A program made the position numbers and the translations under genes. From positions 2,196-66,195 of the forward strand of contig JBBTQI010000003.1 in assembly GCA_038078835.1 (NCBI GenBank): DNA of 64,000 nucleotides. The letters are read 5' to 3'. The notes beneath the pieces were generated by a model. The model did not search any database. It was not told where the DNA came from and saw nothing but the letters and a program-made list of their open reading frames with translations. Positions 6,835-63,990 of this stretch are shown in pieces (within the stretch, counting starts at the first letter, position 1; the number at the start of each line of letters is the position of its first letter). Source of the DNA: Patescibacteria group bacterium. GTDB taxonomy: Bacteria; Patescibacteriota; UBA1384; XYA2-FULL-43-10; 1-14-0-10-43-13.

Positions 6835-8088
6835 ATGAAACACATTTATCTTGATCATTCAGCTACAACGCCGCTCGATCCGAAGGTTCTTTCGGCGATG
6901 ATGCCGTACTTCGGCGACAACTTCGGCAATCCGGGATCCTTGCACTCGTTCGGTGTTGAGACCAAGAAAGCAATCAACGACGCGCGCAAAAACATTGCCG
7001 CTTTTTTGGGCTGCGATGAATCCGAGATTATTTTCACCTCTGGTGGATCAGAATCAGACAATCTGGCCATTCGAGGACTCGTATCACGTAGCAAAGGGGA
7101 CTGTCCCCTAAAGGGGACTGTCCCCGAGAACGCCAAGAAGCCCCACATTATCACGTCGGCGTTTGAGCACAAGGCTGTTTTGGATACAGTTAAATCGCTT
7201 GAAAGGGAGGGAATAATCAAGGCTACCTATATTAAACCGGGCGCGGACGGAGTTATTAAAGTTGATGATATTAAAAATGCCATTCGCGATAACACTGTTT
7301 TAGTCTCGATTATGTACGTCAATAACGAGATCGGCACCATCCAGCCAATCCGTGAAATTGGTAAGGTCATTTCCGGGCTTAATTCTAAAATCGAAAATCG
7401 AAAATCAAAAATCTATTTCCACACCGATGCCGTTCAGGCCACGGAGTTCTGTCCGATAAATGTCCGTGATCTCGGCGTCGATCTGCTCTCCCTCTCCGCC
7501 CACAAAATCCACGGTCCCAAGGGCGTTGGCTTACTCTATGTCAAATCAGGCACACTTCTCAAGCCAGAGATTACCGGCGGCGGACAGGAGAGAGGGTTCC
7601 GCGCCGGAACGGAAAACGTTCCCGGTATTGTTGGGTTTGCTAAAGCAATATCATTAATTAGCAGCTCAAATCCCAAAGTCATACCCCCCCTTTCTAAGGG
7701 GGGGCGAAGAGAGGTTGAGAAGCTTCGCGACAGACTTATCGACGGTATCTTGGAGCGGATTCCCGGCTCGATTTTGAATGGTGATCGTGACCATCTGGCG
7801 CCGCATATTGCCAATATCAGTTTTATTAATGCCGAAGGCGAGGCTATCCTTTTAAACCTCGATTTTCTGGGTATTGCTGTTTCGACCGGTTCGGCCTGCA
7901 CTTCGCGCACGCTTGAGCCCAGCCACGTTTTAACCGCGATGGGTATCCCGCCCGAGCAAGCCCATGGTTCTATTCGGTTCTCCTTGAGCCGGAACACAAC
8001 CGAGGCAGAGATTGATCGAGTACTGGATGTCCTGCCGGGTATCATTGAAAAATTGAGGACAATGAGCCCATTTGACACAAATGGATAA
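6835..8088 (+). CDS. iscS: Cysteine desulfurase (IscS/NifS family), carrying in-frame repeat insertions
   Basis: PLP-lysine motif SLSAHKIHGPKG and a C-terminal active-site Cys region (GSACTS). In-frame insertions at 7097-7125 (GGGGACTGTCCCC pair), a microsatellite at 7383-7409 (aaaatcgaaaatcgaaaatc) and the palindrome cccccctttctaaggggggg near 7683. Confidence 0.9.
   Translation: MKHIYLDHSATTPLDPKVLSAMMPYFGDNFGNPGSLHSFGVETKKAINDARKNIAAFLGCDESEIIFTSGGSESDNLAIRGLVSRSKGDCPLKGTVPENAKKPHIITSAFEHKAVLDTVKSLEREGIIKATYIKPGADGVIKVDDIKNAIRDNTVLVSIMYVNNEIGTIQPIREIGKVISGLNSKIENRKSKIYFHTDAVQATEFCPINVRDLGVDLLSLSAHKIHGPKGVGLLYVKSGTLLKPEITGGGQERGFRAGTENVPGIVGFAKAISLISSSNPKVIPPLSKGGRREVEKLRDRLIDGILERIPGSILNGDRDHLAPHIANISFINAEGEAILLNLDFLGIAVSTGSACTSRTLEPSHVLTAMGIPPEQAHGSIRFSLSRNTTEAEIDRVLDVLPGIIEKLRTMSPFDTNG
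7097..7125. repeat. Palindromic element, family 3 (GGGGACTGTCCCC TAAA GGGGACTGTCCCC), inside iscS
   Basis: Direct and inverted pair; encodes GDCPLKGTVP in frame. Confidence 0.6.
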
Positions 8089-8257
8089 CTAATTCATCCA
8101 AATGACTAATGACGAATAATATAACCCCCTACGCCCATCCTTCTCACACCCCACCCGACCTTCCCGCAGACAGGGGAGAAAACAAAAGAAGGAGAAAATC
8201 TGAATTAGTCATTCGTCATTTAGACCAATTCGTTATCCATTTGTGGTCAGGAGTTTG

Positions 8258-8710
8258 ATGGAACAGTATTCAAAAACAGTCTTAGAGCACTTTTATAACC
8301 CGCGCAATGTCGGGGAAATTGCCGATGCCGACGGCGTTGGCGAGGTGGGCAATCTTCGCTGCGGCGATGTTATGTACGTCTATATCAAAGTAGAAAGGCG
8401 AAAGGCGAAAGGCGAAAATGGTGCAAGGGGACTGTCCCCAAAGGGGACTGTCCCTGGATTTGCCGAAGAAGAATACATTAAGGACATTAAATTTAAAACC
8501 CTGGGCTGTGCGGCGGCCATTGCTTCGACCAGCATTATGACCGAGATGGTTCGAGGTATGAGCTTAGACGAAGCAATGAGGATCACGCGCGACGACATCA
8601 ATGATGCCCTGGGAATTCTCCCCAAACAAAAATACCACTGCTCTATCCTCTCGGCCGACGGTATCCATAAGGCAATCGAAAATTACAGGGCAAAAAAGCA
8701 ATTTAGCTAG
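8258..8710 (+). CDS. nifU: Fe-S cluster assembly scaffold (IscU/NifU N-terminal domain)
   Basis: FYNPRNVGEI...GDVMYVYIKV...LGCAAAIASTSIMTEMV conserved Cys ligands. Start at the ATG at 8258 preceded by AGGAG. Carries a family-3 repeat and a (aaggcg)n microsatellite in frame. Confidence 0.85.
   Translation: MEQYSKTVLEHFYNPRNVGEIADADGVGEVGNLRCGDVMYVYIKVERRKAKGENGARGLSPKGTVPGFAEEEYIKDIKFKTLGCAAAIASTSIMTEMVRGMSLDEAMRITRDDINDALGILPKQKYHCSILSADGIHKAIENYRAKKQFS
8427..8453. repeat. Palindromic element, family 3, inside nifU
   Basis: ggggactgtccccaaaggggactgtccc; encodes RGLSPKGTVPG. Confidence 0.6.
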
Positions 8711-11549: not shown

Positions 11550-13013
11550 TTAGCCCAACTCCCAGTTGGCGTCTACTTTAATCTTGCCCCAAGAAGAAAC
11601 ATTGTTTCGCAGAACGTGATAGTAGGCCGCCAGACCAATCATCGCCGCATTATCGCCGGTTAAAGCTATTGGCGGTACCAGAAAATCTACTTTCGACTTT
11701 TCACTTTCAACTTTCAACTTGCTTCGAAGGTGTTTGTTTGCAGCAACGCCGCCGGCCAAAACAACGGTTTTGGGGGTAAATTGTTCAACCGCTCTCATTG
11801 TTTTAGTTACCAGCACATCAACAACTGCATCCTCAAAGGCAGTGGCAATCTCCGCTTTATCGATATCATCAAGACCCTCACCCCTACCCTCTCCCAAAGG
11901 GCGAGGGAGTTTTAAGGAAATCCGACGCTTAACTTCCAGAAGAACAGCTGTCTTTAAACCGGAGAAAGAAAAATTAAAAGTGCCATTGTTAATAATCGGC
12001 CGAGGAAGAACTAATTTGCTTAAGGCTGGAGGCTTAAGGCCGACCTTCGACAAACTCAGGTCGCCCTGAGTGGAAATTGAATGGGCGGAGGCCACATCCT
12101 TCCCGCCTTCAGCCTTCGGCCTTGGGCCTTGGGCTGATTCGCCTTTAGGATCATTTCTAAATTGCTCCGCCAATTTAGAAATGATCGGTCCCCCGGGATA
12201 ACCAAGACTAAGCAACTTGGCCACCTTGTCAAAAGCCTCTCCCGCCGCGTCATCCAGGGTCTGGCCGAGAGTCTCATACTGATCGTGACCCTTCATCAGA
12301 ACAAGCGAAGTATGCCCGCCAGAAACCACTAAAGCCAAAATTGGAAATTTTGGCTCGTCCAAGGCCAAAGGCCCAAGGTCTAAGGTCTTTTCGTCTCGGC
12401 CTTCGACCTTCGACCTTCGACCTTCGACATTTACTCCGCTTAAAGCGGAGTAAATATGTCCTTCGATATGGTTGACGGGAATAATCGGCTTATCCAGCAC
12501 GTAAGCGATCGATTTGGCGGCGTTAAATCCAATCAAAAGAGACCCGATCAACCCCGGTCCCGCCGTTACCGCGATGTGGGTAATCTCATTTTTTAGATAA
12601 TCCTGACTTTCCTGAAAATTACTACCCTCACCCCAACCCTCTCCCTGAAAGGGAGAGGGAGTATTAAAGGTTCCATCGCCCCGTTTCACGGGGAGAGGGT
12701 TAGGGTGAGGGGTTATAATAGATCCGTTTCCTTTATTTTGCATTTTGCATTTTGCATTTTGATTTTTAGCCTGTAAGAGTGCTTGTACGATTACAGGCGT
12801 TATCGCTTCCATATGCGCCCGGCTGGCCACCTCCGGCACTACCCCGCCCGTCTTGGCATGGAGATCGATTTGAGAGCTCACCACATTCGACAAAATGACA
12901 GGCCGAAAGCCTGTCATCCCGGACTTGATCCGGGATCCATCTTTTCCTACCCCAATAACCGCCGCAGCGGTCTCATCACAAGACGACTCGATGGCAAGAA
13001 TTAGAGGGGACAT
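11550..13013 (-). CDS. tsaD: tRNA N6-adenosine threonylcarbamoyltransferase TsaD (Kae1/YgjD), strongly expanded by in-frame repeat insertions
   Basis: LILAIESSCDETAAAVI, HIEGHIYSA, and GGVAANKHLR. Start at the internal Met MSPLILAIESS (rc ATG at 13011-13013). About 487 aa versus a typical ~340 aa. It contains family-1 repeats (11875-11910, 12625-12712), family-2 repeats (12085-12135, 12352-12430) and a (cattttg)n microsatellite at 12738-12762. Confidence 0.85.
   Translation of the reverse strand: MSPLILAIESSCDETAAAVIGVGKDGSRIKSGMTGFRPVILSNVVSSQIDLHAKTGGVVPEVASRAHMEAITPVIVQALLQAKNQNAKCKMQNKGNGSIITPHPNPLPVKRGDGTFNTPSPFQGEGWGEGSNFQESQDYLKNEITHIAVTAGPGLIGSLLIGFNAAKSIAYVLDKPIIPVNHIEGHIYSALSGVNVEGRRSKVEGRDEKTLDLGPLALDEPKFPILALVVSGGHTSLVLMKGHDQYETLGQTLDDAAGEAFDKVAKLLSLGYPGGPIISKLAEQFRNDPKGESAQGPRPKAEGGKDVASAHSISTQGDLSLSKVGLKPPALSKLVLPRPIINNGTFNFSFSGLKTAVLLEVKRRISLKLPRPLGEGRGEGLDDIDKAEIATAFEDAVVDVLVTKTMRAVEQFTPKTVVLAGGVAANKHLRSKLKVESEKSKVDFLVPPIALTGDNAAMIGLAAYYHVLRNNVSSWGKIKVDANWELG
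12625..12712. repeat. REP-like palindromic element, family 1, composite nested palindrome inside tsaD
   Basis: ccctcaccccaaccctctccc-tgaaa-gggagaggg ... ggggagagggttagggtgaggg. The outer arms at 12625-12645 and 12692-12712 are reverse complements. Confidence 0.65.
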
Positions 13014-13032
13014 TAGAGGGGACGGTTCTCTT

Positions 13033-13683
13033 TTAGGCACAGTTTTTCGCTTTCTTTGATTTTCTGGCCACCTTTTCCTGTTCTCGGTATCTTTGATAAT
13101 TACTGCCCCAGATATTTTTACCATAAGTTTGCTCAATAATTTGGTCTACCACCAGTTTTTGATAGCTAATTTGTCTATCTTGTGCATCCTGTCCGATTGC
13201 CTCATAAAGAAAATCGGGGGTGATTAATAAATCTGTTTTACCTCGAACGTAATGGAGATAGCTTGAGTATTTGTAATCTTCCGGCCTTTCTACTAATCTC
13301 GCCCTGACCGGATTAAGTTCAATATACTTTCCGCACTGGATAAAGTAGGCGTCCTTACCGACCGCCTGACTTTTATAGCGATCTTGCCAAAAGTGGCCAA
13401 TCCAATCATAGGACTGCCGATAGTGTTGGAAATAGGCCAAATTTAACTTTTTCATAAAAGTCGAAAAGTCGAGAGCTTTCTTGGTTTGAATTAAAAAGTG
13501 AGTGTGGGTAGGCATCAAGCAATAATGATAAAGGTCAAAAGGATGTTCTGATTTATACCTGCCAATAAGTTCTAAAAAATACAAATAATCATCATCTGAC
13601 CTGAAAACCTTATTCCGGTTGTTGCCCCGGGTCATTATATGATAAAAACTCTGAGATAAAAGAAATCGTCGTGTTCTTGGCAT
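13033..13683 (-). CDS. REP-associated tyrosine transposase (RAYT, IS200/IS605 TnpA-like HUH enzyme)
   Basis: HUH motif CLMPTHTHFLIQ, plus WQDRYKS and YIELNPVRARLV with the catalytic Tyr region, 216 aa. A 12-bp direct repeat (cattagagggga x2) at 13001-13024 lies just downstream. Confidence 0.7.
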   Translation of the reverse strand: MPRTRRFLLSQSFYHIMTRGNNRNKVFRSDDDYLYFLELIGRYKSEHPFDLYHYCLMPTHTHFLIQTKKALDFSTFMKKLNLAYFQHYRQSYDWIGHFWQDRYKSQAVGKDAYFIQCGKYIELNPVRARLVERPEDYKYSSYLHYVRGKTDLLITPDFLYEAIGQDAQDRQISYQKLVVDQIIEQTYGKNIWGSNYQRYREQEKVARKSKKAKNCA

Positions 13684-15719: not shown

Positions 15720-16003
15720 CAAGCTATCTCTACTACGAAATTACAAATTCACCGAAGGTACAAATATTACCAGTGTTGCGTAATTAATTGGCGATTCCTC
15801 GAATTGTCATCTCGAATCCGCCAACCGGCGGATGAGAGATCTCCGATGTAGCAGCAAACCAATTCGAAGATTTCTCGCCTCCAAGGCCTCGAAATGACAG
15901 ATTGTGGGCATGATTGCGCAACATTGGTAAATATTACAAAACTACAAATTTGTAATTACGTAAGATTCGTAATTTTGTTCAATTTGTAATTTTGTAGGAG
16001 ACA

Positions 16004-17363: not shown

Positions 17364-18491
17364 TCACTTTAATCCTCTCCCTTTGAAGGGGAGAGGGGAG
17401 GGGGAGGGTTTGGCTTGTGAGCGTTTGCCGTGAAAAGCTTGGTGAACTTCGCGCAGATGCTGATCGGTAACATGGGTATAGACTTGAGTGGTGGTGATGG
17501 AAGAGTGGCCCAAAAGCGACTGGACGCTCCGAACATCGGCGCCGTTAATTAAGAGATCGGTGGCAAAGGAGTGGCGCAAGGTGTGCGGCGATACCTTTTT
17601 AGTGAGACCGGCTTTCCTGGCCGCTTTCTCGACAATACGCTGGACACTTCGAACCGCGAGACGCCCGCCCCGGGGGGAAGAGAAAAGGGGCTCATTATCA
17701 CTTAAGGCCGGAGACCTAAGGCCGGAGACCAAATTGCTATTACCTTCAGCCTTCAGCCTTAGACCTTGGGCTGATTTGCCTTCAGCCTTAGACCTTCGGC
17801 CTTGAGCTGATTCGCCTTGGGCCTTGGGCATGGGGCCTTCGGCATAATTCTTCAACCAATATTTTGCGCTCTCTGAAAGAAAAACGACCCGAAGCTTCTT
17901 GCCCTTACCCAACACGGCAATCTCACCTCGTTCGAGATTTATCTGGTCCCGGTCAAGGGCGACCAACTCCGAGACTCGCACCCCCGTTGAAAAAAGAACC
18001 TCCAGAATCGTCCGATCGCGCAAACCGGAAGTTTTAGCAACATCGACAGACTCTAAAACGCTTCTAAGCTCCTCCGTTTCCAGAAAACTGATCTCGCGAT
18101 CCCCCGTTTTAGCGATAACAACCTTCTCCGGCGGTAAAGTCATAATCCCCCGCCAAGAGAGATAGCGCAAAAAAGCCCTAAGGGCTAGGGCATGATAATT
18201 TTGTGTCGTCTTCTTAAGCTCTTGCCCCTTCTTGTCGCCCAATCGATTGATGTAAAGCCGGTAGTGCCGCACCGTCTCTTGGGTAATCATTTCTGGCATA
18301 AGGCCGGAGGCCACATCCTTTTCGCCTTCGACCTTAGGCCTTTGGCCTTCGGCAACATAATCCTTCAGCCACGTTAAAAAACGATTAAGGTAGCGGTCAT
18401 ATCCGGCAATCGTTAAAGTTGACTGGCCCTTGTCCAGCTCGCAATACTCCAAAAACTCGCGTTTTAATTGAAATAAATCATTCATTATCAT
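17364..18491 (-). CDS. xerD: Tyrosine recombinase XerC/XerD family, carrying in-frame repeat insertions
   Basis: HTLRHSFATDLLINGADVRSVQSLLGHSSITTTQVYTHV (R..HxxR..Y catalytic box). Two family-2 repeat insertions (17697-17835, 18298-18360). The C-terminal tail and stop codon lie inside a family-1 palindrome (17361-17410). Confidence 0.85.
   Translation of the reverse strand: MIMNDLFQLKREFLEYCELDKGQSTLTIAGYDRYLNRFLTWLKDYVAEGQRPKVEGEKDVASGLMPEMITQETVRHYRLYINRLGDKKGQELKKTTQNYHALALRAFLRYLSWRGIMTLPPEKVVIAKTGDREISFLETEELRSVLESVDVAKTSGLRDRTILEVLFSTGVRVSELVALDRDQINLERGEIAVLGKGKKLRVVFLSESAKYWLKNYAEGPMPKAQGESAQGRRSKAEGKSAQGLRLKAEGNSNLVSGLRSPALSDNEPLFSSPRGGRLAVRSVQRIVEKAARKAGLTKKVSPHTLRHSFATDLLINGADVRSVQSLLGHSSITTTQVYTHVTDQHLREVHQAFHGKRSQAKPSPSPLPFKGRGLK
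17697..17835. repeat. GC-rich palindromic element, family 2 (AGGCCGAAGGC / GCCTTCGGCCT theme), inside xerD
   Basis: aaggccggagacctaaggccggagacc...ccttcagccttcagccttagaccttgg...ccttcggccttgagctgattcgccttgggccttgggc. The translated segment KAQGESAQGRRSKAEGKSAQGLRLKAEGNSNLVSGLRSPALSDN recurs in uppP and tsaD. Confidence 0.6.
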
Positions 18492-18608
18492 AAATGGATG
18501 ACTAATTGGTCTAAATAACAAATGACGAATATTCATATCCCCTCTATCTCCCTCCCGCATCGAGTACGGGACAGGCTCTACCTTAGGGGGAGAACCATTG
18601 GTTGTTCG

Positions 18609-29976: not shown

Positions 29977-30130
29977 CCAAAGTCAAAATTCAAATGTCAA
30001 ATGTCAAAATGATAAAGGATAAACACAGGGCAATAAGGCTGTAGTGCTAGTAAGGCAGTAGAGTATTTATGGCAGCCCTATTGCTTTACAGGCTTTACTT
30101 GCTTATTATTCGATATTCGGATTTTACAAA

Positions 30131-34749: not shown

Positions 34750-36018
34750 ATGAAAAATGATATTTATCAATATCTGAACGCGCGGATATATTTGGCGCTC
34801 TTTGTGATGGTCTCGGCTCTCTTTGGCCTCTACTGGTTTGCGACTCACTCCTACCTCACCATCAAGGTCACGCCGCCGGACGCTATGGTCACGATCAATA
34901 ACGCGCCGGTCTCGCTCTCCGCCGCCGGCAAAATAAAACGGGCTCTCGCGCCGGGCGCCTACTCGCTTCGGATTGAGGCTGACGGCTACGTCGGCTATAT
35001 CGAGGAGGTTGCCCTCAAACGAACTCAGCGCAAAACCGTCTCGGCCAGCCTCACGGAGGCGCCAAAGGTCCAGACTCTGGCGGAATCAGCGAAATTCCTC
35101 TCCGCCGGGCCGGACTTTAACACCATCCACTATCTGGGCGATGATGGCAGAACGCTCTACCGCGCCAAGACAACACTGGAAAACGGCGAGGTCAAACTCA
35201 AAGAGCACCTCCCGATAACCGAGCCGCGGTTCTCCGGCCTTGAGGAGATTGTCTGGTCGCCCGGCAAGGAGCTGGCTCTCCTGCGCAAGAGCGAGGGCAT
35301 CTATCTCTTCGATTTTAAAAAATACGATTTTATCAATCAAACCGAGACATTGTGGGCCAAGAGCGCCGGCAGTCTTGCCTGGTCGCCGGACAACTCCAAA
35401 ATCGCCTATTATTACGCCGACGACAAGGAGAAATCATTAATCTTTACTAATATTGCCAACACCGAACCGGTACGGGTGGCTAATCTGGCCGAGATGAATA
35501 TCGTCAATCCGATTCTGCGCTGGTCGCCGGACTCCGAATGGCTCCTTGTCATACCTCGTAATACTTTTTCATACGATTTAAGCAAAGTTTATGCCTTTAA
35601 CGCCTACAGTCGCTCCTTTATCGAACTGACGGAAACGGGCAGCCAGCTTGACGCCAGCTTCTCGCCGGACGGCAACAGAATCATCTACGGCACGTATTCG
35701 GAGCTCTCCAGCAATCCCGTCACTTCTCTAATATCGATTATGGATAAAGACGGCGCAAACAAACGCTCGCTTAATTTACGCGCCGATATCAGCCGGATGG
35801 CCTGGAAAAAAGACAGTAAAACCTTAGTCGCGGCGACTTATAATCCCTCAAGTCACAAAGAGTCGCTCTTTGGCTTTGACACCGAGAAGAAGCAGAAGAT
35901 TGATTTCTCCGTTAATGCTCTTGATTCGGGTTACATCCGCACTCTGGCCATTTCTGACGACGAAAAGATCATCATTTTTGAGTCGGGGAACGGGATATAC
36001 GGCATCGCAATAGAGTAA
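34750..36018 (+). CDS. Membrane-anchored PEGA-domain plus TolB-like beta-propeller protein
   Basis: TM helix, a PEGA-like LTIKVTPPDAMVTINNAPV...GAYSLRIEADGYV, then repeated WSPD / FSPDG motifs (WSPDNSKIAYY, RWSPDSEWLLV, FSPDGNRIIYG). Confidence 0.5.
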   Translation: MKNDIYQYLNARIYLALFVMVSALFGLYWFATHSYLTIKVTPPDAMVTINNAPVSLSAAGKIKRALAPGAYSLRIEADGYVGYIEEVALKRTQRKTVSASLTEAPKVQTLAESAKFLSAGPDFNTIHYLGDDGRTLYRAKTTLENGEVKLKEHLPITEPRFSGLEEIVWSPGKELALLRKSEGIYLFDFKKYDFINQTETLWAKSAGSLAWSPDNSKIAYYYADDKEKSLIFTNIANTEPVRVANLAEMNIVNPILRWSPDSEWLLVIPRNTFSYDLSKVYAFNAYSRSFIELTETGSQLDASFSPDGNRIIYGTYSELSSNPVTSLISIMDKDGANKRSLNLRADISRMAWKKDSKTLVAATYNPSSHKESLFGFDTEKKQKIDFSVNALDSGYIRTLAISDDEKIIIFESGNGIYGIAIE

Positions 36019-36245
36019 ATCTCAAACAACAAGCACCAAATATCAAATAATTTCCAAATCACAAACCTCAAATAACAAATAAATTCCAGATTGCAATTAC
36101 CAGCTACAAAAGCGTTTGAAAATTAGAGATTGGGACTTGGAACTTATCTAAGATTTGTTATTTGGGATTTAAATTTTACTTGTGGTTTGGTGCTTGGTAT
36201 TTGAGGTTTCTCCGCTTTGGCGGAGAGGAGGGGTTTTGGCAACCG
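36019..36245. repeat. ~220 bp AT-rich MITE-like inverted-repeat element, copy 1
   Basis: ...caagcaccaaatatcaaataatttccaaatcacaaacctcaa...ttacttgtggtttggtgcttggtatttgaggtttctccgctttggcggagaggagg. The arms are imperfect reverse complements. It ends in a small hairpin plus GGAGAGGAGG. Confidence 0.5.
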
Positions 36246-48493: not shown

Positions 48494-48793
48494 CACAATA
48501 CCTTTCGCTAATATTTTCCTGTGGATAACTCCCTGATTTATCCGCAACCCTGTGGATAACTTATGAAAAACTCGTCGCCTGTAAGGGCGCCGGTTTAAGC
48601 CGGTATATTCTTATCCCCGACACCGGGTATTAATCCACATCTTTTCCCCCACCTTTGTCCAGAACTTATCCCCAACCTCCTCCTTTGTTTTTGATATTTG
48701 ATATCTGATATTTGATATTTATCCACTTATCCACAAGCCTTACTATTACTACTATTAAGTATTTATTATCTTTTCAATAAAACAGGGGATAAG
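48494..48793. other. Chromosomal replication origin (oriC) between dnaA and dnaN, with DnaA boxes and an AT-rich unwinding element
   Basis: TGTGGATAA at 48520-48528 and 48551-48559, TTATCCGCA near 48538, TTATCCAC/TTATCCACA at 48719-48735, plus AT-rich (tgatattt)n repeats at ~48690-48725. A further TTATCCACA lies upstream of dnaA at 50228-50236. Confidence 0.7.
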
Positions 48794-50182: not shown

Positions 50183-50401
50183 AGCTGGAAAATCCCTTAA
50201 AAAAATAGACAACTCAAATATAGCAAGTTATCCACAGGGTACGTCAATAGAGCGTTGGGCAAGGCATCCATCGTCGCTAAAGTGACTTCTCCTACAAAAT
50301 TACAAATTTTACAAATACTATGGTGAACAGGTTCGAATCAATTTGTAATATTTGTAGTTTCGAAAGATTTGTAATTTTGTAGGATATTTAGGTGTATTGT
50401 G

Positions 50402-54564: not shown

Positions 54565-54790
54565 ACCAAAAAATCCCAAATTACAAGCACCAAATAACAA
54601 ATAATTTCCAAATCACAAACCTCAAGTAATAAATAAATTCCAGATTTCAATTACTAACTACAAAAGCGTTGAAATTGAAATTAGAGATTGGAACTTGGAG
54701 CTTATCTGAGATTTGTTGTTTGATATTTGTAATTTACTTGTGGTTTGGTGCTTGTTGTTTGAATTTTCTCCGCCAAGGGCGGAGAGGAGG
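54565..54790. repeat. ~220 bp AT-rich MITE-like inverted-repeat element, copy 2
   Basis: Close to colinear with copy 1 (...acaagcaccaaataacaaataatttccaaatcacaaacctcaag...tacttgtggtttggtgcttgttgtttgaattttctccgccaagggcggagaggaggg). Its terminal GGAGAGGAGG acts as the SD for the ATG at 54795. Confidence 0.5.
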
Positions 54791-54794
54791 GATT

Positions 54795-55619
54795 ATGACA
54801 AGGAGGGGACGGAGGAGAAAATTTTCACCCCGGAGATGGCTTATGCTGGGCATTTTTTCGATTCTGGCGGTAGTTTTTGCCGCGAACTTAAATTTGATCT
54901 CCGCTGATACTAGGGCGGCTGATCCGCTCAAAGGGTCCAAGCTGGAGACTGATGTTGACAGTCCGTACGGCGACCGAGTTGTGGCCGAGTTTCCCAATAA
55001 TCGCGACTGCATCTTTTTTAGCGTCAATGCAATTAAAAAGGATGGCGGCGCCTTAACCGGAGAGAAGATGAGAATAGATCTTTTTAACGGCGCTCATCTG
55101 CGGGACGCCTCTTCGCGAGCCGAGATTGATGCCGGCAATCAGAGCACGGGCGGCGGCCAAACCAGATACTGTCTGACCTCCTCGGAGGCAAGGAAGGGAA
55201 CGGTGACGGTGAAGCTGGCGAACTATCCGAGAACCAAGAAAAAATTCAAAGTTAGTTTTAAACCTGTCGGCAAAGTTGCCAACACTACCGACACTGGCAC
55301 CTTCTTTGGCGACCAGGCGGTCACCTTTGCCGCCGAGATCGCGCCTTGGATGACTAATAATATTAAAGAGGCGAAACTGGTTTACTCCTACCGCCGCCGC
55401 TACAACTCCTGGGGGAGATGGAAGAATCGGGCTGAGACCGAGGAGAAGGCGCTCACCTGCATTGACAGCCGCTGCGAGGCGACGATCGGCGGCTATAAAG
55501 ACGGCCCGACCTCTCTCAACCGCGTTAGCAAGGGCCGCTTTACTTATACTTTTCAATTTACCGACGAGAACGGCAAAAGTTTCAAAAAGTCATTTAGAGG
55601 CAAACTAAAATCACCCTAA
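54795..55619 (+). CDS. Secreted hypothetical protein with an Arg-rich N-terminus plus TM/signal helix; paralogue of 60669-62039
   Basis: MTRRGRRRKFSPRRWLMLGIFSILAVVFAANLNLISADTRAADPLKG resembles MAKRRRSRRGFSARTRVRLLIGTAAILLAVVGV...ADADPNLKA of the paralogue. Start taken at the ATG after the MITE-derived SD. Confidence 0.5.
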   Translation: MTRRGRRRKFSPRRWLMLGIFSILAVVFAANLNLISADTRAADPLKGSKLETDVDSPYGDRVVAEFPNNRDCIFFSVNAIKKDGGALTGEKMRIDLFNGAHLRDASSRAEIDAGNQSTGGGQTRYCLTSSEARKGTVTVKLANYPRTKKKFKVSFKPVGKVANTTDTGTFFGDQAVTFAAEIAPWMTNNIKEAKLVYSYRRRYNSWGRWKNRAETEEKALTCIDSRCEATIGGYKDGPTSLNRVSKGRFTYTFQFTDENGKSFKKSFRGKLKSP

Positions 55620-55629
55620 TGCTTACATA

Positions 55630-55673
55630 ATCCACCTGGAAGGTGAATGCGCCCAAACACCTTCCAGGTGGAT
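55630..55673. terminator. Conserved hairpin CCACCTGGAAGGTG-N12-CACCTTCCAGGTGG, copy 1 (terminator-like)
   Basis: atccacctggaaggtg aatgcgcccaaa caccttccaggtggat, directly after the stop of the 54795-55619 gene. Confidence 0.5.
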
Positions 55674-56538: not shown

Positions 56539-56586
56539 AACCCACCTGGAAGGTGTTTGGCCACACTCACCTTCCAGGTGGGTTGG
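56539..56586. terminator. Conserved hairpin CCACCTGGAAGGTG-N12-CACCTTCCAGGTGG, copy 2
   Basis: aacccacctggaaggtg tttggccacact caccttccaggtgggtt, between pilin-like genes 2 and 3 (downstream of the stop of gene 3 on the minus strand). Confidence 0.5.
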
Positions 56587-60518: not shown

Positions 60519-60562
60519 GCCCACCTGGAAGGTGAATGTGCTCAAACACCTTCCAGGTGGGC
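60519..60562. terminator. Conserved hairpin CCACCTGGAAGGTG-N12-CACCTTCCAGGTGG, copy 3
   Basis: gcccacctggaaggtg aatgtgctcaaa caccttccaggtgggc, downstream of the stop (60669) of the secreted paralogue gene. Confidence 0.5.
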
Positions 60563-63801: not shown

Positions 63802-63814
63802 ATCTCCCTCTCCT

Positions 63815-63990
63815 GTTCAAAATCCCAAACAACAAATATCAAATAACAAATAATTTCCAATTTTCGAATTTCAAAAACTTTGGACTTTGGTAGTTGAAAT
63901 TTATTTGGGATTTGGTTTTTGGATTTTGTAATTTCCGAAACTTTGTTTTACAAAGTTTCGGCTGTTTCTCTTATAAACTTCGCAAACTCG
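63815..63990. repeat. Diverged third copy of the ~220 bp MITE-like element (upstream of the SBP gene start)
   Basis: aaatcccaaacaacaaatatcaaataacaaataatttccaa ... ttggatttggtttttggattttgtaatttccgaaactttgttttacaaagtttcgg. Shares the 5' arm words and the inverted structure with copies 1 and 2. Confidence 0.35.

What the first reader, a model, noticed from the sequence alone, without database searches (positions are those of the whole stretch)
36019..36245. A ~220 bp AT-rich, internally inverted MITE-like element occurs three times, always 5' of a gene, and supplies the ribosome-binding site
Copies at 36019-36245 and 54565-54790 are nearly colinear and 63815-63990 is diverged. Each has a 5' arm (acaagcaccaaa...atttccaaatcacaaacctcaa) and a 3' arm (ttacttgtggtttggtgcttg...ttgaggttt) that are imperfect reverse complements. 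They end in a small hairpin (ctccgcc-aaggg-ggcggag) followed by GGAGAGGAGG 6-8 nt before an ATG (54795; probably also the M23 peptidase gene). All three copies precede envelope or secreted genes (M23 peptidase, Arg-rich secreted protein, SBP lipoprotein). Candidates are a mobile promoter/RBS-delivering MITE, a structured 5' leader (riboregulator) or a small RNA gene.
Basis: seen in the sequence. Interest (0 to 1): 0.6.

Follow-up and report, generated by a model that had tools for sequence, protein, structure and literature searches.

The report
Seven-base-word hairpin repeat between genes
It is a ~195-base hairpin-forming repeat built from 7-base words, most likely a gene-less miniature of the 'intervening sequences' known from ribosomal RNA genes, lodged between co-transcribed genes of a groundwater CPR bacterium. 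It does not bring the ribosome-binding site, but the same word pattern turns up in about a dozen bacterial phyla.

Summary
The repeat is real. Copies 1 (36017-36209) and 2 (54572-54767) are about 90% identical and colinear. Copy 3 (63806-63940) is a weak relative. Each is an imperfect palindrome of 7-nt words, with an A/C-rich left arm and a G/T-rich right arm. No Rfam family and no sigma-70 promoter was found. Both strands fold equally well.

The Shine-Dalgarno sequence and TTG start of the M23 gene are conserved in orthologues that lack this element, so the RBS is native.

An exact search for the terminal words hit at least 118 loci in about 11 phyla. These loci share a conserved word order (AAATYCC-AAATYMC-AAGCACC-AAATNNC-AAAYAAAT).

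At the orthologous site, five CPR relatives carry other-word palindromes (two), word arms flanking a GxxExxY nuclease gene, word arms flanking a 23S-rRNA-IVS protein gene, or nothing. In a Nitrospira contig, arms with the window's own vocabulary flank an IVS-protein gene. In cyanobacterial plasmids such genes are flanked by heptamer arrays.

Best reading: a mobile, ORF-less, IVS-type palindromic element that is co-transcribed and probably cut by RNase III. The MITE-like reading is partly right. RBS or promoter delivery, a riboregulator and an sRNA are not supported.

The parts
36017..36209 (.). Copy 1: imperfect palindrome of 7-nt words. A/C-rich left arm 36017-36097, loop 36098-36128, G/T-rich right arm 36129-36209. 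It lies between the stop of the PEGA/beta-propeller gene (36018) and the M23 peptidase gene.
   Evidence: I5, D10, D13; arm profile E 1e-4 and 2.6e-6
36210..36225 (+). Mini hairpin CTCCGC-TTTG-GCGGAG abutting copy 1. It appears to be a separate small dispersed hairpin module.
   Evidence: 3 copies against 0.03 expected; similar CCGCC..GGCGG hairpins are embedded in family members of other phyla and in L125
36227..36238 (+). Native Shine-Dalgarno GGAGGGG (36227-36233) and TTG start (36236-36238) of the M23 peptidase gene. Not part of the element.
   Evidence: conserved in orthologues L124, L125, L126, L131, L132
54572..54767 (.). Copy 2: about 90% identical to copy 1. Arms 54577-54663 and 54675-54761. 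It lies between the PilB/GspE ATPase stop (54564) and a 274-aa secreted-protein gene.
   Evidence: I1; E 1.1e-6 and 1.5e-4
54768..54784 (+). Mini hairpin CTCCGCC-AAG-GGCGGAG abutting copy 2.
54786..54797 (+). SD GGAGGG (54786-54791) and ATG (54795-54797) of the 274-aa gene. This gene is inverted relative to its orthologue in L120.
63806..63940 (.). Copy 3: a shorter, diverged palindrome using related words, with no CAAGCACC word. It lies between the NTP-transferase gene stop and the SBP lipoprotein gene start (63801), both on the minus strand.
   Evidence: D3: 80% over 56 nt; E 0.0024; z -4.1
63935..63961 (.). Perfect 12-bp hairpin CCGAAACTTTGT-TTT-ACAAAGTTTCGG next to copy 3, just after the upstream (minus-strand) gene. 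The T-run follows it only on the plus strand.
12434..12450 (.). Third copy of the mini hairpin (CTCCGC-TTAAA-GCGGAG). It sits inside a CCTTCGA heptamer array within the TsaD-like ORF.

Best explanation
The element is an ORF-less miniature of an 'intervening-sequence (IVS)-type' selfish palindromic element.

Anatomy (shown):
- Two arms of degenerate 7-nt words, A/C-rich on the left and G/T-rich on the right, surround a short unique loop.
- The outer word order AAATYCC-AAATYMC-AAGCACC-AAATNNC-AAAYAAAT is shared with elements in about 11 bacterial phyla.

Behaviour (shown by comparison):
- Such elements come and go in intercistronic spacers.
- At the PEGA-to-M23 site, relatives carry this kind of palindrome with other words, or the same kind of arms around a small cargo gene, or nothing. 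The cargo is either a PF05635 23S-rRNA-IVS / Avd-like four-helix-bundle protein or a GxxExxY PD-(D/E)XK nuclease.
- Copy 2 looks like a recent copy of copy 1, or the reverse.

How it works (inferred):
- The element is transcribed as part of the operon mRNA and folds into a hairpin of about 85 imperfect pairs (-67 to -78 kcal/mol).
- Like rRNA IVSs with the same build, the hairpin is probably cut by RNase III. That would split the upstream and downstream cistrons and leave the downstream mRNA starting with the mini hairpin plus its own native Shine-Dalgarno sequence.
- Each arm keeps to a family consensus rather than to its partner arm. This suggests the words are recognition sites for a trans-acting protein that spreads or maintains the element. 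The cargo proteins are candidates. The mobility mechanism itself is unknown.
For: (1) The copies are real. Copy identity is about 90%, the palindromes are confirmed, and fold z-scores are -4 to -9.

(2) Period 7 is specific. It is the dominant lag in the arms. It is also the only enriched short period in the window: 40 windows, against 0 for lags 5, 6, 8 and 9.

(3) The family crosses phyla. My own estimate of chance hits is about 1-2. The hits share unselected words, a conserved order and a sharp outer boundary. A profile built only from those loci finds exactly the three window copies in 64 kb.

(4) Turnover at orthologous sites:
- L125 and L126 carry other-word palindromes.
- L124 has arms plus a GxxExxY gene.
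- L132 has arms plus a PF05635 gene.
- L131 is empty, with a 42-nt spacer.
- At the copy-3 site, L120 and L121 carry other words and L122 has only a 20-nt spacer.
- The copy-2 site has no element in L120, L121 or L122.

(5) Direct link to the window's own vocabulary. In the Nitrospira contig L039, family-A words flank a PF05635 ORF.

(6) Generality. PF05635 genes on cyanobacterial and Gemmatirosa plasmids have heptamer arrays next to them in 8 of 9 cases read. The arrays are mostly inverted, and the genes sit between co-directional genes.

(7) Literature. The Coxiella 23S IVS has terminal inverted repeats, a stem cut by RNase III, an S23p ORF and tandem GACAGAT heptamers that vary between strains (PMC4990558). 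IVP ORFs occur in CPR rRNA insertions (PMC11270868).

(8) Arm behaviour. Arms of the same element are barely more complementary than arms of different elements (12.5 against 9.9, sd about 6.5). There is no sense/antisense folding bias.
Against: - No target-site duplication is visible at copies 1 or 2.
- No transposase or other recurrent neighbouring gene was found among the 118 loci.
- No IVP or GxxExxY gene lies in the window, so trans-mobilisation in this genome is unproven.
- Only 64 kb of the host genome was seen. Three copies is a small family.
- RNase III cleavage, and even transcription, are inferred by analogy only.
- Copy 1/2 homology runs through the mini hairpin and SD, possibly to the start codon. 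That fits a segmental copy or gene conversion as well as transposition.
- The cross-phylum similarity could partly reflect convergence on a favoured word set.
- A few of the 118 hits are unrelated (L040, L068, L116) or use other words (Prevotellamassilia).
- The link to cargo ORFs rests on about a dozen inspected cases, not a census.
Confidence: 0.55

Rival explanations
1. Locally grown simple-sequence repeats. On this view, heptamer arrays arise and change in place by polymerase slippage (the explanation offered for heptamer over-representation in bacteria). Paired inverted arrays are then a by-product, with no mobility and no relation to IVS elements.
For: - Strict 7-nt periodicity.
- Heptamer SSRs are known to be over-represented in intergenic DNA. 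In Xanthomonas they occur as close inverted pairs at conserved gene contexts, with variable length and sequence (PMC4692102).
- Orthologous CPR sites often hold some heptamer palindrome with different words.
- No TSD and no transposase were found.
Against: - Copies 1 and 2 share a non-repetitive loop and the same order of degenerate words 18.5 kb apart. They differ mainly by substitutions, with one 4-nt indel, rather than by gain or loss of whole 7-nt units.
- The same word order and a sharp outer boundary recur across phyla.
- Arms flank cargo genes.
- An empty orthologous site exists.
Confidence: 0.15
2. A host-selected DNA or RNA signal rather than a selfish element. Two forms are possible. 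One is a bidirectional insulator or Rho-loading site, since the 5' arm is C-rich and G-poor on whichever strand is transcribed. The other is an array of binding sites for a nucleoid or RNA-binding protein. On this view the signal is kept at particular operon junctions.
For: - The polarity is almost fixed. Adjacent arm pairs read C-arm then G-arm 78 times and the reverse 0 times. The reversed pattern gave only 4 loci in the much larger metagenome collection.
- Each arm keeps to a consensus independently of its partner.
- Five of six genomes have some palindrome at the PEGA-to-M23 junction.
- From memory: E. coli BIMEs can attenuate transcription through Rho and bind gyrase and IHF.
Against: - The site is empty in L131 and nearly empty in L122 with no obvious substitute.
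- The occupants include selfish-looking cargo genes.
- Fixed polarity is also what common descent of one element family predicts.
- The forward and reversed patterns were not counted in the same database.
- The presence of Rho in this organism is unknown.
Confidence: 0.15
3. One reading: a mobile cassette that delivers a promoter and/or ribosome-binding site to envelope genes.
For: - Copies 1 and 2 share the mini hairpin and GGAGAGGAGGG, and 7 of the next 11 bases, up to the start codon.
- The 274-aa gene after copy 2 is inverted relative to L120. It therefore acquired a new upstream region that now looks like the M23 leader.
Against: - The SD and TTG are conserved in M23 orthologues that have other elements or none.
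- The L120 orthologue of the 274-aa gene has its own GGGAGGGG SD.
- There is no promoter-like site.
- Copy 3 lacks the hairpin and SD.
- The family-wide outer boundary lies before the hairpin.
- Family members also sit between convergent genes.
Confidence: 0.07
4. A structured cis-regulatory leader (riboregulator) or a small RNA gene.
For: Strong predicted structure and a position directly upstream of start codons.
Against: - No Rfam family matched, even at permissive thresholds.
- Both strands fold equally well.
- There is no compensatory pattern between copies 1 and 2 in the outer stem (by inspection).
- Arm pairing is no better than between unrelated elements.
- No promoter or terminator brackets the element.
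- It is not conserved in orthologous leaders.
Confidence: 0.05

Closest known systems
Intervening sequences (IVS) of bacterial 23S/16S rRNA genes (Leptospira, Coxiella, Salmonella; also CPR rRNA insertions)
   Same: - Long terminal inverted repeats form a stem around a variable centre.
- The optional cargo is the same protein family (PF05635 / S23p four-helix bundle).
- The Coxiella IVS carries tandem heptamers (GACAGAT).
- ORF-less short versions exist.
- Distribution is sporadic and looks horizontal.
- The element is carried inside a host transcript (PMC4990558, PMC11270868).
   Different: The element here lies in protein-operon spacers, not in an rRNA helix. RNase III excision is not shown. 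The arms are much longer arrays of 7-nt words with a cross-phylum consensus.
Heterogeneous heptameric repeats of Xanthomonas (GGGANTN)n and Nostoc GGGGA(C/T)T; cyanobacterial STRR repeats
   Same: - 7-nt degenerate units, mostly intergenic and mostly transcribed.
- Often arranged as close inverted pairs.
- The same gene context is kept between species while sequence and length vary.
- About 16% lie between convergent genes (PMC4692102), compared with 18% here.
- The G-strand words here (GGGATTT, GGAATTT) resemble theirs.
   Different: - Those repeats were treated as SSRs or G-quadruplex motifs, with no link to IVS proteins or to mobility.
- Here the words are A/T-richer (GG or GGG runs only) and the word order is fixed.
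- Here a unique loop is copied along with the arms.
- STRR (Mazel 1990) and SDR mini-hairpins in heptamer arrays (Elhai 2008) are recalled from memory. Those papers could not be read.
REP / BIME / REPIN elements of enterobacteria and pseudomonads
   Same: - Extragenic palindromes in operon spacers and 3' ends.
- Mosaic build with other small motifs.
- Non-autonomous.
- Species-specific consensus at conserved positions.
- Arms that follow a consensus, which implies a binding protein (PMC3116915; the rest from memory).
   Different: REPs are 20-40 nt with a GTAG-type head and are tied to RAYT transposases. No RAYT, no such head and no 7-nt word structure links the two.
Bacterial MITEs such as Correia (Neisseria) and ERIC (enterobacteria)
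   Same: 100-200-bp imperfect palindromes that are co-transcribed. From memory, Correia RNA is cut by RNase III and ERIC modulates mRNA decay.
   Different: Those are confined to narrow taxa, have defined TIRs and TSDs (TA for Correia), and some carry promoter boxes. Here no TSD and no promoter were found, and the spread crosses phyla.

Membership tests
MITE (miniature inverted-repeat transposable element) | Terminal inverted repeats on a short non-coding unit present in several copies | tested here: met
   81-87-nt arms. Three copies in 64 kb. At least 100 related loci elsewhere.
MITE (miniature inverted-repeat transposable element) | Target-site duplication flanking each copy | tested here: not met
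   No direct repeat at the homology boundaries of copies 1 and 2. The boundaries are blurred by the adjoining mini hairpin.
MITE (miniature inverted-repeat transposable element) | Presence/absence polymorphism at orthologous sites | tested here: met
   Empty site in L131. 20-nt spacer in L122. No element after PilB in L120-L122. The relatives are distant, at 56-73% amino-acid identity.
MITE (miniature inverted-repeat transposable element) | A parent autonomous element with the same ends that encodes a transposase | tested here: inconclusive
   No transposase and no recurrent neighbour was found. Longer relatives with the same kind of arms carry PF05635 or GxxExxY genes. Neither is a known transposase.
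IVS-type element (rRNA intervening sequence) | Long inverted termini forming a stem around a variable centre that may hold a PF05635 ORF | tested here: met
   Stem. PF05635 ORF between word arms at the orthologous site (L132). PF05635 ORF between family-A word arms (L039).
IVS-type element (rRNA intervening sequence) | Inserted in an rRNA helix | tested here: not met
   All three copies lie between protein-coding genes. No rRNA is present in the window.
IVS-type element (rRNA intervening sequence) | Excised from the host transcript by RNase III | not testable with these tools
   Only predicted structure is available. This needs RNA-end mapping or an in vitro cleavage assay.
Heptameric simple-sequence repeat (STRR-like) | Tandem units of 7 nt | tested here: met
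   Lag-7 autocorrelation 0.53-0.57 in the window arms and 0.46 across 118 loci. Lag 7 is uniquely enriched in the window.
Heptameric simple-sequence repeat (STRR-like) | Near-perfect units whose number varies by slippage | tested here: not met
   The units are degenerate and in a fixed order. Copies 1 and 2 differ mainly by substitutions plus one 4-nt indel, not by unit number.
REP/REPIN | Short palindromic units associated with a RAYT (TnpA_REP) gene | not tested
   No RAYT was seen in the window or among recurrent neighbours, but whole genomes were not searched.
Any curated RNA family (Rfam 15) | Match to a covariance model at gathering score | tested here: not met
   Only tRNA-Ser was found in the window. 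Only weak miRNA-hairpin noise appeared at E up to 10. Nothing was found in five foreign loci.

The most novel reading that the evidence does not exclude
Several things now treated separately may be one ancient, cross-phylum class of small selfish 'IVS elements': the intergenic heptamer repeats of many bacteria (cyanobacterial STRR, Xanthomonas G-rich heptamers, the CPR palindromes here), the rRNA intervening sequences, and the stray 'four helix bundle / S23p' and 'GxxExxY' genes found inside operons, including cas operons. On this reading the ends of these elements are arrays of 7-nt words. The cargo is an Avd-like or PD-(D/E)XK protein. The ORF-less miniatures are what genome surveys have been recording as heptamer SSRs.
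Probability: 0.35. Interest if true: 0.8.

Novelty: new variant of a known kind. Interest (0 to 1): 0.62.

Why it matters
Heptamer repeats have been known for over 30 years in cyanobacteria and were flagged as over-represented in many bacteria, but they have no accepted origin or function. The PF05635 and GxxExxY gene families are abundant and uncharacterised.

The comparisons here tie these together with rRNA intervening sequences:
- word arms around these genes;
- an ORF-less miniature and an empty site at one orthologous junction;
- one word pattern shared by about 11 phyla.

If this holds, many 'SSRs', 'hypothetical proteins in cas operons' and unexplained long spacers in compact CPR genomes would be reclassified as one kind of mobile element. 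It would also predict RNase III processing sites inside operons. For annotation, it warns that such hairpins, and the in-frame arrays seen in TsaD and NifU here, are insertions and not regulatory leaders.

Tried and rejected
- Rfam at gathering and permissive thresholds found nothing.
- Sigma-70 promoter and terminator scans of all three copies found no promoter and no terminator in gene direction.
- Scans of viral contigs with both arm polarities gave 0 hits, so there is no sign of a phage vehicle.
- blastn of copy 2 against plasmids gave no match. The low-complexity filter may hide hits.
- All-against-all clustering of 1,862 ORFs from the 118 loci found no recurrent neighbour gene or transposase.
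- A GxxExxY search in all loci and the window found only L124 itself.
- A literature search by sequence strings returned only chance primer matches.
- The Elhai 2008 paper is not held.
- Sense against antisense folding as a test for RNA-level selection showed no bias.
- A first G-poor/C-poor segment scan with too strict a threshold found nothing and was redone.
- The polarity comparison is imperfect. The forward pattern was scanned in genome contigs and the reversed one in metagenome contigs.
- G-quadruplex formation was considered and set aside, because the G-arm has mostly GG runs.
- attC, CRISPR and REP were considered and rejected on anatomy.
Full report
SOURCE AND SETTING. The window matches a 70.6-kb ENA contig from Hainich groundwater (Hain_H43_02um_R3_81). 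Its gene content is typical of CPR/Patescibacteria: T4SS-type pilins and a dnaA-dnaN-recF origin region. NCBI names its proteins 'Patescibacteria group bacterium'. All three copies lie in stop-to-start spacers between co-directional genes:
- Copy 1 lies between the PEGA/beta-propeller gene (stop 36018) and the M23 peptidase gene (TTG 36236).
- Copy 2 lies between the PilB/GspE ATPase gene (stop 54564) and a 274-aa secreted-protein gene (ATG 54795).
- Copy 3 lies on the minus strand, between the NTP-transferase gene and the SBP lipoprotein gene (start 63801).

THE OBSERVATION. Copies 1 and 2 align without rearrangement at about 90% identity from 36017/54572 to just past the start codons.

Each copy is an imperfect palindrome. 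Arms are 81-87 nt and 70-71% complementary. Folds are far better than shuffles: -66.8 to -77.5 kcal/mol, z -4.3 to -9.3. The two strands fold about equally well.

Copy 3 is shorter and only loosely related (D3). It lacks the mini hairpin.

The mini hairpin CTCCGC-N4/5-GCGGAG occurs three times in the window against 0.03 expected. The third copy sits inside a CCTTCGA array within the TsaD-like ORF, so it is a separate small module.

No tRNA or Rfam family overlaps the copies. No sigma-70-like promoter is present in them.

ANATOMY: SEVEN-BASE WORDS. The arms are degenerate tandem heptamers (CAAATNC-type words and their complements). Lag-7 identity is 0.53-0.57 in the window arms. Period 7 is the only short period enriched anywhere in the window: 40 windows at 0.74 or more, against none for lags 5, 6, 8 and 9.

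The window also holds palindromes with the same layout but other vocabularies (8076-8252, 15729-16001, 50288-50391). It holds heptamer arrays inside ORFs as well.

A CROSS-PHYLUM FAMILY. I searched one representative genome per species for the two best-conserved 11-mers in palindromic arrangement. I expected only the source genome. My own estimate of chance hits is about 1-2.

The carriers are listed:
- Aminicenantes/Acidobacteriota
- Planctomycetota
- Desulfobacterota
- Bacteroidota
- Firestonebacteria
- Verrucomicrobiota
- Gammaproteobacteria
- Nitrospira
- Omnitrophota
- a Clostridia bin
- five CPR lineages
- one Methanophagales bin

Several hits lie on contigs of 0.2-4 Mb, so mis-binning cannot explain the spread.

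A few hits are unrelated (L040, L068, L116) or use other words (Prevotellamassilia). The rest share words that were not part of the query. Aligned on the anchor, they share a fixed order, AAATYCC-AAATYMC-AAGCACC-AAATNNC-AAAYAAAT. Information drops sharply 13 nt outside the anchor, which marks a defined outer end.

GC-rich mini hairpins of the CCGCC..GGCGG kind are embedded in many of them.

A profile built only from these foreign arms finds exactly the arms of copies 1, 2 and 3 in the 64-kb window (E 1e-6 to 2e-3). It finds nothing in the CPR relatives. The window's element is therefore a member of this family.

FAMILY BEHAVIOUR.
- Flank types: 41 co-directional, 11 convergent and 9 divergent (cruder count). 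The elements are not specifically 5' of genes.
- Strand bias: the sense strand folds no better than the antisense strand (mean difference -0.27 +/- 6.9 kcal/mol, n=41, p=0.81).
- Arm pairing: the two arms of one element are hardly more complementary than arms taken from different elements (12.5 against 9.9, sd about 6.5). Each arm is held to a consensus rather than to its partner. That is what protein-recognised ends look like, and not what a freely co-varying RNA helix looks like.
- Polarity: it is nearly fixed, with the A/C arm first (78 against 0 adjacent arm pairs). The reversed pattern gave 4 loci in the far larger metagenome collection. The two patterns were not scanned in the same database.
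- Neighbours: no protein family recurs next to the elements.
- Viruses: no hits in viral contigs.
- Aminicenantes: 85%-similar copies share the loop and at least 60 nt beyond the arms.

ORTHOLOGOUS SITES. Gene order around all three sites is conserved in CPR relatives at 56-73% protein identity.

Site 1 (PEGA to M23):
- L125 has a GGTAGGC/GCCTACC palindrome with a mini hairpin inside one arm.
- L126 has a GGTAAAGC/GCTTTACC palindrome.
- L124 has TACGAAA/TTTCGTA arms (48 nt, 81% complementary) around a 125-aa GxxExxY / PF13366 gene.
- L132 has CACGTAA x3 / TACGTGA x3 arms around a 108-aa PF05635 / TIGR02436 four-helix-bundle gene.
- L131 is empty, with 42 nt between stop and start.

In every one of these, GGAGGGG/GGAGGGA plus a few bases plus TTG precedes the M23 gene. 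The RBS therefore belongs to the gene.

Site 3 (NTP-transferase to SBP): L120 and L121 hold other-word palindromes, and L122 has 20 nt.

Site 2 (after PilB): L120-L122 have no element. The 274-aa gene is absent there in L121 and L122. In L120 it lies on the other strand with its own promoter-like region and SD.

In the window's lineage that gene was inverted. It now follows a near-copy of the M23 leader (element, mini hairpin and SD). Whether the SD travelled with the copy or is native cannot be settled. Seven of the 11 bases after GGAGGG match, and two of those are forced by the start codon.

LINK TO IVS-TYPE ELEMENTS. PF05635 is the protein found in 23S rRNA intervening sequences. The Coxiella IVS has terminal inverted repeats, a stem cut by RNase III, this ORF, and tandem GACAGAT heptamers whose number varies between strains (PMC4990558). 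IVP ORFs also occur in CPR rRNA insertions (PMC11270868).

Among the cross-phylum loci, a Nitrospira contig (L039) has a PF05635 ORF (E 3e-17). It is flanked by the window's own vocabulary...AAATCTCAAATCACAAAACACAAGCACCAAC|ATG on one side and ...TTTGGAATTTGTGGTTTGGAGCTTGTAATTTG on the other.

tblastn of the L132 protein against plasmids found 22 records. Nearly all are cyanobacteria, the classical hosts of heptamer (STRR) repeats.

In 8 of 9 flanks read, heptamer arrays abut the gene. They are usually inverted, for example GGGAACA/TGTTCCC, GGGAAAA/TTTTCCC and CAGGAGT/ACTTCTG. The gene sits between co-directional genes such as cas6|cas4 and cas10|cmr3. An earlier survey had noted IVP genes inside cas loci without explaining them (PMC3936711).

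GxxExxY genes on plasmids also have inverted or direct word arrays nearby, but less cleanly.

WHAT WAS ALREADY KNOWN. Several facts are in the literature (PMC4692102):
- Heptamer SSRs are over-represented in bacteria.
- In Xanthomonas about 40% of the (GGGANTN)n arrays form close inverted pairs.
- 83% of them keep their gene context between two species while changing in length and sequence.
- About 16% lie between convergent genes.
- Most are transcribed.

These were discussed as slippage products or G-quadruplex motifs. In the held literature I found no statement linking them to IVS proteins, and no description of the cross-phylum CAAGCACC word family. The library is incomplete, so that absence is weak evidence.

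MECHANISM.

Shown:
- The anatomy of the element.
- Its membership of the cross-phylum family.
- Turnover at orthologous sites, including an empty site.
- Cargo-bearing relatives.
- A native RBS.
- No promoter, no strand bias and no Rfam family.

Inferred:
- The element is co-transcribed with its operon. There is no terminator in gene direction and no promoter between the element and the start codon.
- It folds into a long hairpin.
- By analogy with rRNA IVSs, it is cleaved by RNase III. That would uncouple the two cistrons and leave the mini hairpin plus SD at the new 5' end.
- The word arrays are recognised by a trans-acting protein, with the cargo proteins as candidates.
- How the unit is copied is unknown. 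No TSD was found.

Rivals are scored separately: in-situ slippage, a host-selected insulator or Rho site or protein-binding array, RBS or promoter delivery, and a riboregulator or sRNA.

VERDICT. The 'MITE-like' label is partly right. The RBS, promoter and riboregulator ideas are not supported.

The local finding alone would be a routine intergenic repeat. It ranks higher because it is a member of an undescribed cross-phylum word family, and because comparison at one junction connects heptamer repeats, ORF-less palindromes and IVS-protein genes.

Noticed in passing
window 11550-13136 (-): The TsaD-like ORF is 528 aa (my recollection of typical TsaD length is about 340). Pfam matches the TsaD domain in four separate stretches. 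The extra sequence is in-frame heptamer arrays and palindromes: TTTCAAC (11681-11727), CCTTCGA (12092-12136, 12386-12439), TTTTGCA (12723-12778), and a CCCTCACCCC...GGGGTGAGGG palindrome (12618-12712). This is reminiscent of Rickettsia palindromic elements inside genes.
   Followed up: partly
window 8243-8710 (+), 6835-8088 (+), 17364-18560 (-): Heptamer arrays also sit inside other ORFs. A NifU_N ORF has its Pfam match split in two by GAAAGGC x3 at 8386-8430. A class-V aminotransferase has AAAATCG x3 at 7371-7422. A 398-aa XerC-like integrase has CCTTCAGCC-type arrays at 17703-17843 and 18295-18354.
   Followed up: partly
window 8076-8252; 15729-16001; 50288-50391; 29977-30025; 48676-48725: Further spacer palindromes or arrays have the same layout (A-rich arm, centre, T-rich arm ending next to an SD) but other 7-nt vocabularies (ATTNGTC, TTTGTAA, AAATGTC, TTTGATA). 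One lies in the dnaA-rpmH spacer beside DnaA boxes.
   Followed up: partly
window 55632-55671, 56542-56581, 60521-60560: A 40-nt near-perfect hairpin, CCACCTGGAAGGTG...CACCTTCCAGGTGG, is repeated three times within the T4SS-pilin gene cluster.
   Followed up: no
window 54795-55619 versus L120 1877-2749: The 274-aa secreted-protein gene is inverted relative to its orthologue (33% identity) in the closest relative. It is missing at this position in two others.
   Followed up: yes
L010, L013, L016, L024, L026, L051, L079, L080: In Aminicenantes, an Acidobacteria bin and a Clostridia bin, the family-A palindrome is the core of a larger repeat of about 330 nt or more. The repeat has a conserved, possibly structured centre and conserved flanks (GTAAGACTAAAA... 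/ ...TTTTGGACAGATCTG). The copies are about 85% alike.
   Followed up: partly
L137, L138, L139 (cyanobacterial plasmids): PF05635 'four helix bundle' genes sit between cas6 and cas4, or between cas10 and cmr3, and are flanked by heptamer arrays. Their reported association with cas operons may reflect insertion of a selfish element rather than a CRISPR function.
   Followed up: partly
L129/L130 7222-7380 and L127/L128: Rare reversed-polarity elements (G/T arm first, then A/C arm) exist. One lies in a divergent promoter region.
   Followed up: no
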